Positions 3,477-13,557 of a stretch of DNA of 64,000 nt are shown piece by piece; position 1 is the first letter of the stretch; each line of letters begins with the position of its first letter. Origin of the DNA: a virus. The DNA lies in the IMG/VR virus record IMGVR_UViG_3300042882_000890, positions 42,605 through 106,604 of that record; one strand, 5' to 3'. Below the pieces are notes generated by a model. The model was not told where the DNA came from. It worked only from the letters and a program-made list of their open reading frames with translations, and did not search any database. The translations under genes and the position numbers were made by a program.

Positions 3477-3851
3477 ATGGAAAAAGAATTTATCCCTTAC
3501 GCAGAAGCATTAGCATTAAAAGAATTAGGATTTGATGAACCTTGTTTTGCTTATTATGGTGAAATTAATGGTGGAGAAATTATGTTGTTTCTTAAAAAGA
3601 ATTTTGATAATCAAGCATTATATTTTTTAGCACCACTTTACCAACAAGCATTTAGATGGTTTAGAGAGAAGTATGGTTTAGATAGTTGGGTATATAAATC
3701 AAGAGATTACGCTTATTTTTATTCTATACTTAAAGATAGTAGATATTTATCTCCAAGTATTGAATTTAATTCATACGAAGAAGCAGAACTTGAATGTCTC
3801 CGTAAATTAATAGAAATAGTAAAAGAAAAGTTTGCACAATTAAAAAATTAG
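3477..3851 (+). CDS. conserved phage hypothetical protein
   Basis: Start moved to ATG3477. Pattern KEFIPY.EAL.LKELGFDEPC ... APLYQQAFRWFREKY ... YEEAELECL. Confidence 0.65.
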   Translation: MEKEFIPYAEALALKELGFDEPCFAYYGEINGGEIMLFLKKNFDNQALYFLAPLYQQAFRWFREKYGLDSWVYKSRDYAYFYSILKDSRYLSPSIEFNSYEEAELECLRKLIEIVKEKFAQLKN

Positions 3852-3862
3852 TTGTAATTTTG
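3831..3862 (+). promoter_or_regulatory. Bacteroidota primary-sigma promoter
   Basis: TTTG-N20-TAATTTTG. Confidence 0.8.
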
Positions 3863-3887: not shown

Positions 3888-4961
3888 ATGAAGTTATTAA
3901 GAGACATTCCTACAAGACATTTTGTAGCGATTGACATTGAGACAGTGAGAATTGTCGAGAAGTACGAGGACTTATCCGATGAGTGGAAGTCAGCGTGGGA
4001 GTACAAGAACAAACAGTCCGGAGAGGTGCCTTTCTTTGAGGAGTTGTCAGACAGTTGGGAAAAAACAGCATCTTTGTATGCGGAGTTCAGTAAAGTTTGT
4101 GCTGTCAGCGTGACGTTCTTATCTAAAAGTGAAGACAAATTACTTTGTAAAGAGTTCTTCGGTACGGAAGAGAGTGTACTATTATATCAGTTAGGAGAGT
4201 TTTTAAACCAAATCTCTGGTAGTAGCAAAGATTTCAGATTGGTAGGACATGCCGCTAAGTACTTTGATTACCCTTTCTTATGTAAAAGGTATATCATCAA
4301 CAGTCTAGTAATACCGACATTGCTAGATACAGCCCACTTAAAACCTTGGGAAAGCAGAAACCTTTGTACCAATGCAGACATTTGGAAAATGGGTGGTACG
4401 GGTGCCGGTAGTTCTTTACAAGCGTTGTGTACTTCCTTGGCAATCCCAATCAGTAAGGTTGATTTAGTTGGAGATGAGGTTGGTAATGCGTATTACAGAG
4501 GAGAGGTAGAGAGAATTGCTCACTATTGTTCACTTGACACTATTGCTACGTTCAACGTAATTCGTAGAATTAAAGCAGAGAGAATCTTTCAGTTTGATGA
4601 AGTATCTTACCTAGACAGAAAAGAAAAGTCTAATGTAGCCAAACCGGTTGCTAAAAAAGAAGCTGTTGCTAAAAAGACCGCTACTAAAAAAGAGGTTGCT
4701 GAGAAAAGAGAGCCGGAAGATGTGTTGTTTGAGAAGTTACCTATACTTCACAGAATCTTAAATGCCACGGAGATACTTCCGGAAACAAGACAAGAGTTAG
4801 AGGCTTTGTTAAAGAAGAAAAAGATGACTAAGAAAGACCGAGTTATCGTGGAAGACATATTAGTTAATCTGTATGTTAACAGCGAGATGTTTAAGTCTGA
4901 CAAGCCGGAAGTAAAAGAGAGTAAAAAAGCCGAGATTAAAGAAATTTTAGATAGTATATAA
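3888..4961 (+). CDS. DEDDy 3'-5' exonuclease, PolB-exonuclease-related family
   Basis: ExoI DIET, ExoII GH...FDYPFL, KPWE, ExoIII YCSLD, and a Lys/Ala-rich linker to a C-terminal helical domain. Confidence 0.85.
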   Translation: MKLLRDIPTRHFVAIDIETVRIVEKYEDLSDEWKSAWEYKNKQSGEVPFFEELSDSWEKTASLYAEFSKVCAVSVTFLSKSEDKLLCKEFFGTEESVLLYQLGEFLNQISGSSKDFRLVGHAAKYFDYPFLCKRYIINSLVIPTLLDTAHLKPWESRNLCTNADIWKMGGTGAGSSLQALCTSLAIPISKVDLVGDEVGNAYYRGEVERIAHYCSLDTIATFNVIRRIKAERIFQFDEVSYLDRKEKSNVAKPVAKKEAVAKKTATKKEVAEKREPEDVLFEKLPILHRILNATEILPETRQELEALLKKKKMTKKDRVIVEDILVNLYVNSEMFKSDKPEVKESKKAEIKEILDSI

Positions 4962-5653: not shown

Positions 5654-5655
5654 AG

Positions 5656-5687
5656 TTTGCAGGATTAAAAAATAAGTTGTACCTTTG
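5656..5687 (+). promoter_or_regulatory. Bacteroidota primary-sigma promoter driving the RNA island
   Basis: TTTG-N20-TACCTTTG. Confidence 0.85.
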
Positions 5688-5704
5688 CAAAACAAAATTA
5701 GAAC

Positions 5705-6365
5705 ATAACCTGTACCCCCGAAAAACTCGTATTAATGATAAGCAGGTTATCCCGACATAAAGGGGTAGGAGAATTAGGGAAAATAAAGATTATGAATGTG
5801 GTGCGACTTCTGCACAGATAGCTTAAAAGTCAGTAAACGAGCAGATAACTGAACTGCCACACAATCTTTATCTGTGTAAATATAGTAAATAGACGTAAGG
5901 CAGAGGGTCTTGAGTTAAATCGGACATTCCCCCCTACATAGGTAGCACGGAATTTATTTTTTAAGGTTAAACATTCAAACCTTTGTAATAGACTGTTAGG
6001 GGTCTTTAAGACGGAGTGCTACTTTACATAAAAGAAGTATTTTGCTTTACATAAAAAATGTTAATAGGTTAAACATTGAATACCTTTGTAAACAAAAAGC
6101 CTGCCTTAATGAGGTCTGCGTTAAAAGACTTGGCTATAGTAGTCTGTTTACATAAAGATACATGCAGTAATGTATGAACGTGAGTTGCCTTGAGAAAGCA
6201 ATAAATATTAAGAGTATTAAATTGATATACTACTCACGTAATGAGCCTCGGCAAGTAGTTAATCAGGTGTGAGTTCAGTAATCCTCCCAATTACACATCG
6301 AAAGGAGGTAGTTAACTACGTGACCCTACTCTTATGTCGCAAGACTATGGATAAGAAAGAGGGTG
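5705..6365 (+). ncRNA. large structured non-coding RNA (ROOL/GOLLD-like size class, family unassigned)
   Basis: About 700 nt with no credible ORF behind a promoter. Many helices: 5705-12/5743-50, 5753-69/6325-39, 5896-903/6101-08, 5942-48/6016-22, 6178-85/6232-39, 6255-63/6311-19. Confidence 0.65.
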
Positions 6366-6388
6366 CTAAAATTTTAAATAAATAAAAA

Positions 6389-6553
6389 ATGAAAAAAGTA
6401 TTTTTGGCATTAGCTGTTGTTATGGCGATTGCAGTTACAAGTTGTAAACCTGCACCGGCAGAAGTTACAGAAACTCCTACGACAGAAGTTGATACACCAA
6501 GTGTGGATACAACAACAGTTGATACTACCACTACTGTAGATACAGCTGAGTAG
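6389..6553 (+). CDS. small Thr/Asp-rich lipoprotein (54 aa)
   Basis: MKKVFLALAVVMAIAVTS|CKPAPAEVTETPTTEVDTPSVDTTTVDTTTTVDTAE with lipobox VTSC. Missing from the ORF track. Confidence 0.85.
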   Translation: MKKVFLALAVVMAIAVTSCKPAPAEVTETPTTEVDTPSVDTTTVDTTTTVDTAE

Positions 6554-6612
6554 TATTTAAGAGTCGAGGCTCAATCCTTTGATTTGAGCACGCTACCTCG
6601 GACTTTGACAAG

Positions 6613-6635
6613 TGCCCCCACACGGGGGATTTTTT
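6613..6635 (+). terminator. intrinsic terminator
   Basis: CCCCC-acac-GGGGG followed by a T6 tract. Confidence 0.6.
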
Positions 6636-6645
6636 AAAGAATGTT

Positions 6646-6755
6646 TTGGGTATGTTGAATGGTAAACAAGCACTGTGACCAGTGTGGCATAGAGTTGAGA
6701 GTCCGGATGTCAAAACTCTTATAAGTCCTTGGGGGTTCGAGTCCCTCTACCTAAT
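6646..6755 (+). ncRNA. tRNA-like RNA with 4-nt anticodon loop and 46-nt variable region
   Basis: Acceptor TTGGGTA/TACCTAA, D arm TTG-AATGGTAAA-CAA, stem CACTG-TGAC-CAGTG, T arm GGGGG-TTCGAGT-CCCTC. Confidence 0.65.
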
Positions 6756-6768
6756 CAAAATTATAGAT

Positions 6769-7134
6769 ATGGAAATAGTAGAAAGCGTAGTAAAAAGAGC
6801 TAATAGTTATTTAAGAGATACAGAAGACTGTATAGAATACCCCATACTAAATAAAGATGGCTATGGAGAAATGCAAACTTATTTATTAGGTAAGAAAAAG
6901 CATTATTTGATGCACAGAGTATCTTTCCAAATATTTAGCGGTATAGATATAAGTTCAGATAATATTATTTGTCATAAGTGTGATAACCCTAGTTGTATAA
7001 ACCCTAGACATTTAGTTTTAGGCACTCATTTAGAAAATGTAAAAGATAGGGTTATAAAAAACAGAAGTGCTAAAGGTAAAAATAATGGTAGGTATAAACA
7101 TGGTACCTATGTAAAAAATAACCCAAATGGGTAA
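6769..7134 (+). CDS. free-standing HNH homing endonuclease
   Basis: HRVSF...ICHKCDNPSCINPRHL..GTHLENVKD. Start moved to ATG6769 because the longer ORF overlaps the tRNA-like element. Confidence 0.9.
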   Translation: MEIVESVVKRANSYLRDTEDCIEYPILNKDGYGEMQTYLLGKKKHYLMHRVSFQIFSGIDISSDNIICHKCDNPSCINPRHLVLGTHLENVKDRVIKNRSAKGKNNGRYKHGTYVKNNPNG

Positions 7135-7140
7135 CAGAAA

Positions 7141-7473
7141 AGTAGTTTGTTGATATATTATTGAAGTTGACCAACACCCGAGTTCGACTCTCGGCATCTC
7201 CACTAATCACTTGGTATTAAGGTGGTTACAGTTTCCTTGAACTATAAACAAGGTGGTGGAGTCACTGAGCAATCAGTTGACCTAAAGGGGCTTTTGGAAG
7301 ATTGTGCCACTTTATAAAAAACAATCTATATAAGGGGATGACTGGTTTTGATTGGCAATAAGTAGGTAGTAAGGAGAATGTACTTTAAACACAAACGGAG
7401 ACGTTTACCAACTTGGTGGTGTTCAGCTTAGAGCTGTAGCATAACCACGCCTGAGGAGAGCGAAATCTCCTCA
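7141..7473 (+). ncRNA. ssrA: circularly permuted tmRNA
   Basis: The acceptor piece (T arm CCGAG-TTCGACT-CTCGG, CATCTCC-A 7195-7202) lies UPSTREAM of the coding piece (GGGGATGACTGGTTTTGA at 7334). G3.U70 Ala identity pair. Tag frame 7397-7444 reads GDVYQLGGVQLRAVA*. Confidence 0.88.
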
Positions 7474-7476
7474 AAT

Positions 7477-7550
7477 GCCCCCATAGCTCAGTTGGTCAGA
7501 GCAACTGACTCATAATCAGTAGGTCACAGGTTCAAGCCCTGTTGGGGGCA
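7477..7550 (+). tRNA. tRNA-CAU, most likely Ile2 (lysidine type), otherwise elongator Met
   Basis: Full cloverleaf, loop CTCATAA, C4-G69/C5-G68 and discriminator A. CCA is not encoded. Confidence 0.9.
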
Positions 7551-11695: not shown

Positions 11696-11772
11696 AACAA
11701 CTTAAAAAGAAATAACCTTTAACAACAAGATAAACCCTAAAATTTGGGGTTTATGTAATAACAAAAAGTAAT

Positions 11773-11910
11773 ATGAAATTTGAAACGTGGTTAGACGAAA
11801 ATTACCCATACAGAAACAGAAACTACAAACAAGAGACACTGTATGCTAAGAGCAAGTATGATGAAACGTATTTAAAAAATGAATTATTAGAAATATACAA
11901 CGAATTATGA
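11773..11910 (+). CDS. hypothetical protein (45 aa)
   Basis: ATG11773-TGA11910, with an ATGA overlap to the next ORF. Confidence 0.45.
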   Translation: MKFETWLDENYPYRNRNYKQETLYAKSKYDETYLKNELLEIYNEL

Positions 11911-11999
11911 AGTACTTATTAATATGGGCGGCTTATGAGTTTATCAGACCAAAAATGATTTGGTTGTTTTATTATCTAATTAGAAAAGGAGAGAGATAA
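11907..11999 (+). CDS. hypothetical hydrophobic peptide (30 aa)
   Basis: MKYLLIWAAYEFIRPKMIWLFYYLIRKGER*. Confidence 0.4.
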   Translation: MKYLLIWAAYEFIRPKMIWLFYYLIRKGER

Positions 12000-12102
12000 A
12001 AAAGGGTTATGAGTGATAAAGAAGAAAAAGTACCCTACTACAAATGGTGCTACGGAAAGTTTATCCTAGTAGGGTATGTAACAAAAGATAAAAAATAAAA
12101 TT

Positions 12103-13162: not shown

Positions 13163-13275
13163 ATCATGTGAAGTCCGACTTATCTCAACTATTACAGCCA
13201 AAGATGGGTAAGAGTTATTTTGATAACCAAAGAATCTTTACTCTGGAGCAAGAAAAAAAAGTTTTAGAAGAAAAG

Positions 13276-13307
13276 CTTGCAGAACTAAAAAACAATTCGT
13301 AACTTTG
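13276..13307 (+). promoter_or_regulatory. Bacteroidota primary-sigma promoter
   Basis: CTTG-N20-TAACTTTG. Confidence 0.8.
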
Positions 13308-13320
13308 CAAAAAAATAATT

Positions 13321-13557
13321 ATGATAGGGACAGTAAAAAAAGACAAAGAAGGTAACTTTATAGTAGTTTACCACAAAGAGTGCATAGAAGATTCAGATGC
13401 TGTAGTAAGAGTTTCTTGTAATCTAATGCCTAGTTATAAGTATTGCAAATTTGAAGATGGCGAAACTATAGAGTTTGAGCTATTGGAGTTTGTACAAAAG
13501 GACGGTAGTTTTGATATCTATGCTAAGCCTTATTTTGATAACTTTAGTAGGATGTAA
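13321..13557 (+). CDS. hypothetical protein
   Basis: ORF directly after a promoter. Confidence 0.55.
   Translation: MIGTVKKDKEGNFIVVYHKECIEDSDAVVRVSCNLMPSYKYCKFEDGETIEFELLEFVQKDGSFDIYAKPYFDNFSRM

What the first reader, a model, noticed from the sequence alone, without database searches (positions are those of the whole stretch)
5690..6370. Large ornate non-coding RNA heading the RNA island
Seen: ~700 nt with no credible ORF in an otherwise gene-dense genome, directly behind a perfect promoter. Long-range closure is CGACATAA..GTAGG (5753-69) with CCTACTCTTATGTCG (6325-39). Nested helices include TAAGGCAG/CTGCCTTA, GTAGCAC/GTGCTAC, ACGTGAGT/ACTCACGT and GTAGTTAAT/GTTAACTAC. Candidate pseudoknots or alternative pairings are TACCCC/GGGGTA, GCACAGATA/TATCTGTGT and CCTCC/GGAGG. 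Known: ROOL and GOLLD are large phage-associated RNAs found near tRNAs. Inference: this is a member of that class or a new family. I see no RNase P or group I core motifs.
Basis: partly seen in the sequence, partly recalled or inferred. Interest (0 to 1): 0.75.

Follow-up and report, generated by a model that had tools for sequence, protein, structure and literature searches.

The report
Uncatalogued folded phage RNA gene
The gene-free 0.7 kb holds a promoter-driven non-coding unit whose last 310 bases are one copy of a widespread, intricately folded phage RNA that no RNA catalogue lists, that a cultured relative makes in large amounts, and whose job is still unknown.

Summary
The 0.7-kb ORF-free stretch is real. 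It is the largest coding gap in the window and lies behind a Bacteroidota-type promoter.

It is not one giant RNA closed by a long-range helix. It has four parts:
- an ~75-nt pseudoknot module (5707-5780), shared with 8 other phage contigs;
- ~180 nt with no relatives and no structural support;
- an ~85-100-nt duplicate of the first two hairpins of the fourth part;
- a complete ~310-nt copy (6063-6372) of a large, uncatalogued phage RNA family.

The family has at least 146 IMG/VR copies. Its 24-mer is in more than 120 metagenome contigs, and its diagnostic 16-mer is essentially absent from 185,579 bacterial genomes. Compensatory changes support eight helices and, weakly, a pseudoknot: 94% of cells are paired, against 35-51% in slid controls. 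It also has a GNRA loop and variable arms.

No Rfam family matches even at E<=10 (GOLLD, ROOL, RNase P and introns included).

The copy in Cellulophaga phage phi14:2 starts 5 nt into the g004-g005 junction, reported as an abundant, early, persistent 'long non-coding RNA'.

The RNA sits co-oriented among tRNA and tmRNA genes. It is therefore most likely a free-standing, trans-acting RNA. Its function is unknown.

The scan has met this family before on other DNA (more than 20 notes).

The parts
5656..5687 (+). Bacteroidota-type promoter (-33 TTTG, 20-nt spacer, -7 TACCTTTG). The expected start is near 5694-5697.
   Evidence: Pattern scan: 13 sites in the window against 2.3 expected. It is about 80% identical (26 of 32 bases by my count) to the site at 3831-3862 and to promoter copies in L002. 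The start site is inferred, not mapped.
5707..5780 (+). 5' pseudoknot module. S1 is 5707-5712 with 5743-5748. S2, the pseudoknot, is 5713-5718 (UACCCC) with 5762-5767 (GGGGUA). S3 is 5750-5753 with 5777-5780.
   Evidence: Shared with 8 further phage contigs behind 9 loci (L016, L063, L077, L113, L114, L139-L142). S3 covaries (UCCC/GGGA, GCUC/GAGC, GUCCC/GGGGC). L113 carries a 48-nt insert with stop codons in the S1 loop, and 1-nt indels occur. S1 and S2 never vary. No Rfam match.
5781..5962 (+).
   Evidence: No nucleotide or translated relative among 326 fetched loci. Fold z-score -0.33. Neither coding nor structure is supported.
5963..6061 (+). Partial duplicate of the family's 5' end (hairpins P1 and P2, of the L112 type).
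   Evidence: nhmmer with the family profile matches positions 4-86 to window 5963-6032, E 3.5e-5. It is 94% identical to the corresponding part of the complete copy in L112. Direct repeats D1, D2 and D8.
6063..6372 (+). Complete copy of the uncatalogued phage RNA family.
- P1: 6066-6069 with 6082-6085 (loop UAAACAUUGAA)
- P2: 6086-6093 with 6146-6154
- P3: 6161-6165 with 6172-6176, capped by GNRA loop GUAA at 6167-6170
- P4: 6178-6185 with 6232-6239
- P5: 6186-6188 with 6198-6200
- Pseudoknot: loop 6190-6196 with 6245-6251
- P7: 6255-6262 with 6312-6319
- P8 insert: 6263-6311
- P9a: 6323-6327 with 6360-6364
- P9b: 6330-6335 with 6351-6356
   Evidence: nhmmer E 1.5e-55; it is the only full copy in the 106.6-kb record. 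Pair counts on 52 sequences: 94.0% paired against 35-51% slid, 30 of 54 pairs changed on both sides, 0 of 500 shuffles as good. On 86 sequences: 92.7% against 36-47%. In this copy the pseudoknot keeps only 5 of 7 pairs.
6389..6553 (+). Small lipoprotein-like ORF (54 aa), 19 nt after the RNA. Probably on the same transcript; not part of the RNA.
   Evidence: ORF list. No Pfam or PHROG family. A similar ORF follows the RNA in L002/L016. Other members are followed by unrelated genes, tRNA, tmRNA or terminators.
6615..6634 (+). First terminator-like hairpin with a T run downstream of the promoter.
   Evidence: Terminator scan. The surrounding 6554-6632 is 86% identical to the spacer between the RNA and the tmRNA in L102.

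Best explanation
Window 5656-6372 is a promoter-driven non-coding unit on the + strand. Its functional heart is 6063-6372. This is one complete gene copy of a large family of compactly folded phage RNAs, about 260-520 nt long. The fold has eight helices supported by pairing or compensatory change, a less well supported loop-to-strand pseudoknot, a GNRA-capped hairpin, three near-invariant single-stranded motifs and variable arms.

Upstream of the core lie three things: a separate ~75-nt pseudoknot module from a rarer family, ~180 nt of unsupported lineage-specific sequence, and a leftover duplicate of the family's first two hairpins.

Shown:
- homology, structure and strand;
- restriction to phages;
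- placement as a self-contained unit among co-oriented tRNA and tmRNA genes.

Taken from a paper: the intergenic region that begins 5 nt before the phi14:2 copy is transcribed rightward, early, persistently and at a very high level.

Inferred (about 0.3 on its own): the RNA is released from the island transcript by the enzymes that trim its tRNA and tmRNA neighbours. It then acts in trans as a stable, tightly folded particle on the translation apparatus. It might dock tRNA-like elbows or the ribosome, or soak up a host factor aimed at them. It does not regulate the gene next door.
For: Family size and range:
- The 16-mer ACGTGACCCTACTCTT hits 107 IMG/VR stretches. Of 94 non-redundant loci, 91 match the family profile.
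- A second motif finds at least 120 more stretches. Of 60 new loci without the 16-mer, 55 match the profile.
- More than 120 metagenome contigs carry a 24-mer.
- In 185,579 bacterial species genomes the 16-mer hits 23 places. Only 3 of these, all MAG contigs, show further likeness.

Structure:
- P3, P4 and P5 have 3-5 pair types each. P9a gains C-G to U-A once ascertainment is by the other motif.
- P3 loops are GUAA, GUGA, GAGA or GAAA.

Strand:
- G-U pairs are common on the + strand (for example UG 26 of 52 in P3 and 47 of 52 in the pseudoknot). They would be C-A on the other strand.
- All 25 loci with tRNAs and all 12 with tmRNAs are co-oriented with the RNA.

Free-standing unit:
- Members are followed by unrelated ORFs, by a terminator, by a tRNA, by a tmRNA 8-79 nt away, or by a second copy.
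- tRNAs end 3-90 nt before the RNA in three loci.

This record:
- Every detectable RNA gene of the record lies within 1.2 kb downstream (tRNA-Met and a permuted tmRNA candidate).

Expression of a relative:
- The phi14:2 copy is at KC821624 2910-3290 and beyond.
- RefSeq names g004 as 2194-2904 and g006 as 4602-4901.
- Drobysheva et al. (bioRxiv 10.1101/2020.03.07.982082) report that the g004-g005 and g005-g006 junctions are transcribed above most genes, rightward, from the first time point and without later decline.
Against: - There are no reads for this phage, and none could be laid on phi14:2. The ends and the processing are inferred.
- The paper gives regions, not coordinates, and its tables are not held.
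- Folding energies are no better than shuffles.
- The pseudoknot rests mostly on one-sided changes plus one divergent sequence, L066. It is weak in this very copy.
- Only about a quarter of loci have a tRNA within 5 kb, and an eighth have a tmRNA. The link to translation RNAs is an enrichment, not a rule.
- No fixed protein neighbour was found.
- No conserved complementarity to the neighbouring tmRNAs was found.
- Only 5 of 67 members have a host-type promoter directly upstream.
Confidence: 0.78

Rival explanations
1. One reading: one ~680-nt ornate RNA whose ends are closed by 5753-5769 pairing with 6325-6339, with the other quoted helices nested inside.
For: All the strings exist. The minimum-free-energy fold of the whole stretch uses the closure. 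One promoter precedes the whole stretch.
Against: - In at least 86 relatives the CUCUUAU of 6325-6339 pairs locally across a variable hairpin (P9b).
- Relatives lack the 5' partner. The 5' module occurs in only 9 contigs including this one, and in six of the other eight it is not followed by the core within 330 nt.
- TAAGGCAG and GTAGCAC have no counterparts where their partner inserts recur.
- The centroid fold drops the closure, and the z-score is -0.76.
- Pairs of 8 nt are expected by chance about 5.6 times in this stretch.
Confidence: 0.06
2. It works like GOLLD or ROOL: copies of the RNA assemble by kissing loops and A-minor contacts into an RNA-only multimer or cage, made during infection. 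It would do so without being a member of either family.
For: - The setting is the same: phage-borne, near tRNA genes, and next to tRNA-Met here.
- Like GOLLD it has a conserved 3' part and a variable 5' part (PMC12286853).
- It has a GNRA loop and invariant unpaired motifs.
- The J7/9 4-mer CGUG varies only to CAUG, CGCG or UGUG, all self-complementary.
- A relative makes it in very large amounts.
Against: - No Rfam match to either family.
- It is half the size or less.
- The palindrome pattern has about a 1 in 4 chance under transitions alone.
- No tool here can test assembly.
Confidence: 0.15
3. It is a cis-acting element of the island transcript: a leader that controls the lipoprotein gene at 6389, or an antitermination, stabilising or processing signal for the structured RNAs downstream.
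For: - Here and in L016 a small lipoprotein ORF starts 19-23 nt after the RNA. In 23 of 87 members an ORF starts within 30 nt.
- In this window the 5' module begins about 10 nt after the predicted start.
- In other contigs the 5' module precedes tRNA-like genes.
Against: - Downstream neighbours of the core are unrelated to one another, and some are terminators, tRNAs, tmRNAs or a second copy.
- Near-invariant sequence over about 150 nt is unusual for a leader.
- Only this window has a promoter in front of the 5' module.
Confidence: 0.1
4. It is a ribozyme, for example a reduced RNase P-like or intron-like catalyst that matures the neighbouring tRNA or tmRNA.
For: - It has a compact pseudoknotted core, a GNRA loop and invariant joining strands.
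- Homing-endonuclease ORFs sit inside its P7/P8 loop in some loci, as in group I introns.
- It neighbours RNase P substrates.
- There is a faint likeness between ACGUGACCC...CUUAU / GAAAGAGGGUGC and the RNase P P4 strands. This comparison is from my own memory of the E. coli sequence, not from a test.
Against: - No match to any RNase P, group I or II intron or small ribozyme model at E<=10.
- The P4-like strands form a local hairpin in the wrong order.
- There are no flanking exons, and the flanks are unrelated between loci.
Confidence: 0.07
5. It is a DNA-level feature: a replication origin with iterons, a promoter array, a homing-endonuclease target, or decayed coding DNA.
For: - There are direct repeats: TTTACATAAA three times and ACCTTTGTAA twice, plus a close copy in the promoter.
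- P1/P2 contains a TAnnTTTG look-alike.
- The stretch lies in a replication-gene neighbourhood.
- Homing endonucleases cluster around it.
- In L077-type contigs an ORF reads into the 5' module.
Against: - The repeats are the two strands of P2 and the partial duplication.
- Compensatory changes keep pairing while destroying the promoter-like motif.
- G-U pairs make the structure strand-specific.
- Indels are not in threes, and the inserts carry stop codons.
Confidence: 0.04

Closest known systems
The unexplained abundant 'long non-coding RNA' of the g004-g005 junction of Cellulophaga crAss-like phage phi14:2 (Drobysheva et al., bioRxiv 10.1101/2020.03.07.982082; later in Nature)
   Same: It belongs to the same RNA family by sequence and structure. 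The phi14:2 copy (L074:1770-2226, KC821624 from 2910) is one of the 52 aligned members. It starts 5 nt after g004. It is also followed by a tmRNA candidate (ARAGORN only).
   Different: The paper reports only transcript level and timing for the whole intergenic region. It gives no sequence family, structure, ends or function. The phi14:2 copy has an extra branch inside P3 and is ~457 nt against ~310 nt here. Here there is a host-type promoter, whereas early phi14:2 genes are read by the virion RNA polymerase.
GOLLD RNA (Rfam family; 14-mer nanocage, PMC12286853)
   Same: It is a phage-borne large structured RNA of unknown function near tRNA genes, including tRNA-Met. It has a conserved 3' region and a variable 5' region, pseudoknots and variable arms.
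   Different: No covariance-model match even at E<=10. GOLLD is about 800 nt, against a 260-520-nt family. Its hosts are different (Lactobacillales and Actinomycetota phages) whereas these are phages with Bacteroidota-type promoters. Assembly was not tested.
ROOL RNA (Rfam family; octameric nanocage, PMC12286853)
   Same: It is encoded in phages and prophages, often near tRNA islands. It has multiple pseudoknots and no known protein partner or function.
   Different: No model match. ROOL is about 580-660 nt. ROOL also occurs in prophages of sequenced bacteria, whereas this family's 16-mer is essentially absent from 185,579 bacterial genomes.
Large catalytic RNAs that host homing-endonuclease genes in peripheral loops (group I introns) or mature tRNA and tmRNA (RNase P RNA)
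   Same: It has a GNRA tetraloop, a core pseudoknot and an invariant core with variable peripheral arms. In seven loci 0.4-0.7 kb splits the RNA at the P7/P8 loop, and in L008 the insert holds an HNH ORF.
   Different: No model match. There are no exons or conserved flanks. No P4/CR-I/CR-V arrangement and no G-binding P7 were recognised. Catalysis is untested.

Membership tests
Uncatalogued phage RNA family (phi14:2 g004-g005 type) | Conserved sequence blocks in order: UAAACAUUGA loop, UUUACAUAAAGA, CUUGAGAAAG, AAAUGAGUUCUCAGCAAGU, ACGUGACCCUACUCUU, AGAGGGUGCUAA | tested here: met
   nhmmer with the 52-sequence profile covers window 6063-6372 at positions 2-334 of 336, E 1.5e-55. This copy has GAGCCUCGG in place of GAGUUCUCAG.
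Uncatalogued phage RNA family (phi14:2 g004-g005 type) | Helices P1-P5, P7 and P9 kept by compensatory change | tested here: met
   94.0% of 2711 cells are paired against 35-51% slid. 30 of 54 pairs changed on both sides. 0 of 500 shuffles do as well. With 86 sequences, 92.7% against 36-47%. All these helices form in the window copy.
Uncatalogued phage RNA family (phi14:2 g004-g005 type) | Pseudoknot between the P5 loop and the strand after P4 | tested here: inconclusive
   95.8% of cells are paired, but mostly without variation. There are U-A/U-G changes and one divergent sequence with changes on both sides. The window copy keeps 5 of 7 pairs, two of them G-U.
Uncatalogued phage RNA family (phi14:2 g004-g005 type) | Abundant discrete transcript during infection | not testable with these tools
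   Reported for the phi14:2 region only. No RNA run was listed for the phi14:2 locus.
GOLLD / ROOL | Match to the family covariance model (conserved core sequence and structure) | tested here: not met
   cmscan of the window at gathering score, and of 2201-, 361- and 386-nt slices at E<=10, gives no GOLLD or ROOL hit.
GOLLD / ROOL | Phage-borne, next to tRNA genes | tested here: met
   tRNA-Met and a tmRNA candidate lie within 1.2 kb here. 25 of 94 loci have a tRNA within 5 kb, all co-oriented.
GOLLD / ROOL | Homo-oligomeric RNA-only cage | not testable with these tools
   No tool for RNA quaternary structure. The only hint is a weak palindrome pattern in J7/9.
RNase P RNA | Model match; long-range P4 helix built from CR-I and CR-V | tested here: not met
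   No RNase P model hit at E<=10. The only P4-like strands form the local hairpin P9.
Group I / group II intron | Model match, and insertion in a host gene with conserved exon flanks | tested here: not met
   No intron model hit. The flanks differ between loci and include terminators, tRNAs and unrelated ORFs.
Riboswitch or cis-regulatory leader | Fixed position upstream of one class of gene | tested here: not met
   An ORF starts within 30 nt in only 23 of 87 members, and the ORFs are unrelated. Others are followed by a terminator, tRNA, tmRNA or a second copy.
HEARO / omega RNA, retron or DRT non-coding RNA | Adjacent IscB, TnpB or reverse-transcriptase gene | tested here: not met
   Neighbour clustering over +/-5 kb of 94 loci finds replication genes, HNH_3 and GIY-YIG homing endonucleases and unknowns. 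None of these partners appears.

The most novel reading that the evidence does not exclude
The core is a new class of compact, near-invariant phage RNA. It would work physically with the phage's own tRNA/tmRNA set or with the host ribosome, as an elbow-docking scaffold, a decoy for a host factor that attacks translation RNAs, or a self-assembling particle. That would make it a third ornate phage RNA class beside GOLLD and ROOL, this time with a cultured, tractable model (phi14:2 on Cellulophaga baltica).
Probability: 0.3. Interest if true: 0.85.

Novelty: new member of a known kind. Interest (0 to 1): 0.62.

Why it matters
Large, tightly conserved RNAs without a known function are rare. They have repeatedly turned out to be ribozymes, ribonucleoprotein cores or, recently, RNA-only cages.

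This family has several features that make it worth study:
- It is common in marine and freshwater phage contigs and is apparently confined to phages.
- Its sequence is conserved at a level usually seen in tRNA-processing or ribosome-associated RNAs.
- It sits in the same islands as phage tRNA and tmRNA genes.
- Unlike GOLLD and ROOL in most settings, it has a cultured lytic model in which its region is among the most abundant transcripts.

A defined structure model and borders make knock-out, pull-down and cryo-EM experiments directly possible.

For this window specifically, the result corrects the anatomy: the stretch is a 310-nt family core plus unrelated 5' modules, not a 700-nt molecule.

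Tried and rejected
- Rfam at gathering score and at E<=10 on small slices gave only chance-level hits (RT-6, TeloSII_ncR30, ST7-AS2).
- BLAST of the stretch against 50,697 phage records found nothing at 1e-5. phi14:2 appeared only at E 0.03 through two short blocks.
- For public RNA runs on the phi14:2 locus, none was listed, so no reads were laid.
- The supplementary tables of Drobysheva et al. and of the 10,006-candidate phage RNA survey (PMC10690425) are not held. I could not check whether that survey lists this motif.
- No paper in the library contains the motif strings.
- A covariance model was not built. Even the 10 shortest members align to more than 400 columns. I used a sequence profile (nhmmer) and pair counting instead.
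- Thermodynamic stability gave no signal. The minus strand scores z -2.2, but G-U pairs and gene orientation point to the + strand.
- A search for conserved complementarity between the RNA and its neighbouring tmRNA found nothing consistent.
- A search for a fixed protein partner within +/-5 kb found none. The commonest neighbour (phrog_15656, 25 loci) lies at varying distances.
- A second pseudoknot (L1 CAUU with AAUG) cannot be tested because neither side varies. My scripted test of it was mis-indexed and is void.
- No relatives of the middle 180 nt were found.
Full report
**What is at the coordinates**

The window is part of a 106.6-kb IMG/VR virus record. ORFs of at least 60 aa cover 94.2% of it. 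The longest gap is 5654-6315, which continues to the ATG at 6389 once a spurious antisense ORF is set aside. Only 32-38-aa ORFs lie on the + strand inside 5690-6370.

Directly upstream, at 5656-5687, is a Bacteroidota-type promoter: TTTG, then 20 nt, then TACCTTTG. This pattern occurs 13 times in the window against 2.3 expected. The copy here closely resembles the one at 3831-3862. The built-in sigma-70 scan does not see it.

As raw statistics they are weak:
- Inverted repeats of at least 8 nt number 14 against 5.6 +/- 3.3 in shuffles, and 6 of 300 shuffles do as well.
- Folding energies are no better than shuffles.

The case therefore has to rest on relatives.

**Relatives split the stretch into parts**

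The protein upstream led to four related contigs. Only one of them (L002/L016) shared pieces of the non-coding stretch.

A 16-mer from the 3' end (ACGTGACCCTACTCTT) then hit 107 IMG/VR stretches. Almost all carry further blocks of similarity, but only to window ~6063-6372.

A profile built from 52 full-length members finds in the whole record:
- one complete copy at window 6063-6372, E 1.5e-55;
- one fragment at window 5963-6032, E 3.5e-5, covering profile positions 4-86.

The fragment is 94% identical to the 5' end of the copy in L112. The complete copy's own 5' arm is of the L070 type. The window therefore carries a leftover duplicate of hairpins P1-P2, which looks like recombination between variant genes.

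Window 5707-5780 is a different, rarer element found in 8 further contigs. Window 5781-5962 has no nucleotide or translated relative among 326 fetched loci, and its fold z-score is -0.33.

**The core family and its fold**

The members share near-invariant blocks separated by variable-length arms.

I wrote a structure from the consensus: P1, P2, P3, P4 enclosing P5 and a variable arm, a pseudoknot between the P5 loop and the strand after P4, P7 enclosing a variable arm, and P9a/P9b enclosing a variable arm.

On the 52-sequence MAFFT alignment:
- 94.0% of 2711 cells form standard pairs, against 35-51% when partners are slid by 1-3 columns.
- 30 of 54 pairs have changes on both sides (205 cells).
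- No shuffle of 500 reaches any observed measure.

P3, P4 and P5 show three to five pair types per position. For example, the window's CGUGAGU/ACUCACG replaces the common GUGUUGU/ACAACAC.

The first set was ascertained by the 16-mer, so I fetched a second set by a different motif. Sixty of them were new non-redundant loci without the 16-mer, and 55 of those match the profile. On 86 sequences the structure holds at 92.7% against 36-47%, and P9a now shows C-G to U-A/U-G.

P3 is capped by GUAA, GUGA, GAGA or GAAA, that is, a GNRA tetraloop.

The pseudoknot is mostly invariant, with U-A/U-G changes and one divergent member with changes on both sides. I rate it probable, not proven. In the window copy it keeps only 5 of 7 pairs.

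G-U pairs are frequent on the + strand, which fixes the strand.

- Confirmed as P4 and P7: ACGTGAGT/ACTCACGT and GTAGTTAA/TTAACTAC.
- The proposed closure of 5753-5769 with 6325-6339 competes with P9b, which uses the same CUCUUAU locally in the family.
- The partners of TAAGGCAG and GTAGCAC lie in variable arms. The copies of those arms in L070 and L112 have no such upstream partner.

**The 5' module**

The module has three elements:
- S1: AACCUG with CAGGUU.
- S2, a pseudoknot: UACCCC in the S1 loop pairs with GGGGUA in the loop of a second hairpin.
- S3: the second hairpin itself, which covaries (UCCC/GGGA here; GCUC/GAGC; GUCCC/GGGGC).

L113 tolerates a 48-nt insert with stop codons, and 1-nt indels occur. 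In L077-type contigs an upstream ORF happens to read into the module, but those features argue for RNA.

What follows the module differs between contigs: directly the core (L063), another module and then the core (L016, L114), or tRNA-like genes (L077, L139, L140, L142). It is therefore an independent building block of such islands. Only in this window does it sit about 10 nt after a predicted start site.

**Not a catalogued family**

cmscan of the whole window at gathering score finds only tRNA-Met. At E<=10 on slices of 2201, 361 and 386 nt nothing but chance-level hits appear. There is no GOLLD, ROOL, RNase P, intron, tmRNA, OLE, raiA or HEARO hit over 5690-6370. No paper in the library contains the motif strings.

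**Distribution and context**

The family is common in IMG/VR and in marine and freshwater metagenome contigs; more than 120 carry an exact 24-mer. In one genome for each of 185,579 bacterial and archaeal species the 16-mer occurs 23 times. Twenty of these are bare chance matches and three are MAG contigs with the full RNA.

Around 94 non-redundant loci:
- 25 have a tRNA within 5 kb, and 14 within 1 kb.
- 12 have an ARAGORN tmRNA. Four of six tested are confirmed by Rfam at gathering score.
- All of these tRNAs and tmRNAs are on the RNA's strand.
- tmRNAs start 8-79 nt after the RNA, and tRNAs end 3-90 nt before it.

Otherwise the RNA is followed by unrelated ORFs, by an intrinsic terminator a few bases after GCUAA, or by a second copy. 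That is the behaviour of a self-contained RNA gene, not of a leader.

Neighbouring proteins are replication genes, HNH and GIY-YIG homing endonucleases and unknowns. None is at a fixed distance. In seven loci 0.4-0.7 kb splits the RNA at the P7/P8 loop, and in L008 the insert holds an HNH ORF.

In this record the only other detectable RNA genes are tRNA-Met and a permuted tmRNA candidate, and both lie within 1.2 kb downstream.

**Expression**

- The paper says that the g004-g005 and g005-g006 junctions of phi14:2 are transcribed rightward above most protein genes. This holds from the earliest time point, with no later decline, and the function is unknown.
- RefSeq carries those gene names: g004 ends at 2904 and g006 starts at 4602.
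- The family copy begins at about 2909.
- ARAGORN places a tmRNA candidate in the second junction, but Rfam does not confirm it at gathering score.

The mapping is thus well supported. However, the paper gives no ends, its tables are not held, and no RNA run was listed for me to lay reads on.

**How it most likely works**

Shown: this is a real, strand-specific, compactly folded RNA gene that is conserved far beyond its neighbours. It is phage-restricted and placed like a tRNA-type unit in RNA islands.

Inferred: it is cut out of the island transcript by the enzymes that trim its tRNA and tmRNA neighbours, and it acts in trans. I give about 0.3 to a role on the translation apparatus or its RNAs.

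The rivals, with my odds:
- self-assembly in the manner of GOLLD or ROOL: 0.15;
- a cis-acting role: 0.1;
- catalysis: 0.07;
- a DNA-level element: 0.04.

**Novelty**

Members of the family have been seen as an unexplained transcript, and this scan has flagged the family more than twenty times on other DNA. As far as I could check, it has no entry in Rfam and no described structure. I file it as a new family within the known kind 'large structured phage RNAs of unknown function near tRNA genes'.

Noticed in passing
window 6645-6761 and 7140-7525, with ORF 6771-7134: The tRNA-like piece (T-arm GGGGGTTCGAGTCCC) and the permuted-tmRNA-like region are contiguous in the closest relative, L016. Here they are separated by ~380 nt that hold an HNH homing-endonuclease ORF, so an endonuclease gene appears to sit inside the tmRNA-like gene. 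The Rfam tmRNA_permuted hit (7145-7444) scores 42.1 bits, below the gathering score of 47.
   Followed up: partly
window 6554-6634: A nested hairpin plus a CCCCCACACGGGGG stem with a T run is 86% identical to the spacer between the family RNA and the tmRNA in L102. It also follows the RNA in L101. It is a conserved inter-RNA element or terminator.
   Followed up: partly
window 6389-6553: A 54-aa lipoprotein-like ORF (signal peptide, Cys, then a D/T/V-rich tail) starts 19 nt after the RNA. A similar ORF holds the same place in L016. It has no Pfam or PHROG family.
   Followed up: no
window 6263-6311 (P8 insert of the core): This is an interleaved pair of helices: GGUGUG/CACAUC crossing CCUCC/GGAGG. 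It recurs unchanged in L072, L077, L078, L101 and L105. A variant downstream of the RNA in L075 has GCGUG/CACGC, so it may be a movable pseudoknot module.
   Followed up: partly
L008, L012, L049, L067, L085, L091, L102: The family RNA is split at the P7/P8 loop by 0.4-0.7 kb. In L008 the insert is an HNH ORF. HNH and GIY-YIG genes each lie near the RNA in 10 loci.
   Followed up: partly
L016, L113, L114 (downstream of the 5' module): A third shared non-coding module (GGUCUCUG ... AGGGAACGCUUGUGAGUGGCAG ... AACUCUCA) lies between the 5' module and the core or a tRNA. It is absent from the window.
   Followed up: no
window 11696-12102 and 13163-13474: These are the next largest ORF-free gaps of the window (407 and 312 nt). 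Rfam finds nothing there at gathering score.
   Followed up: no
family position J7/9 (window 6320-6322 and flanks): When members are found by another motif, ACGUGA varies only to AUGUGA, ACAUGA or ACGCGA. The inner 4-mer stays self-complementary (CGUG, UGUG, CAUG, CGCG). This is a weak hint of a kissing contact.
   Followed up: partly
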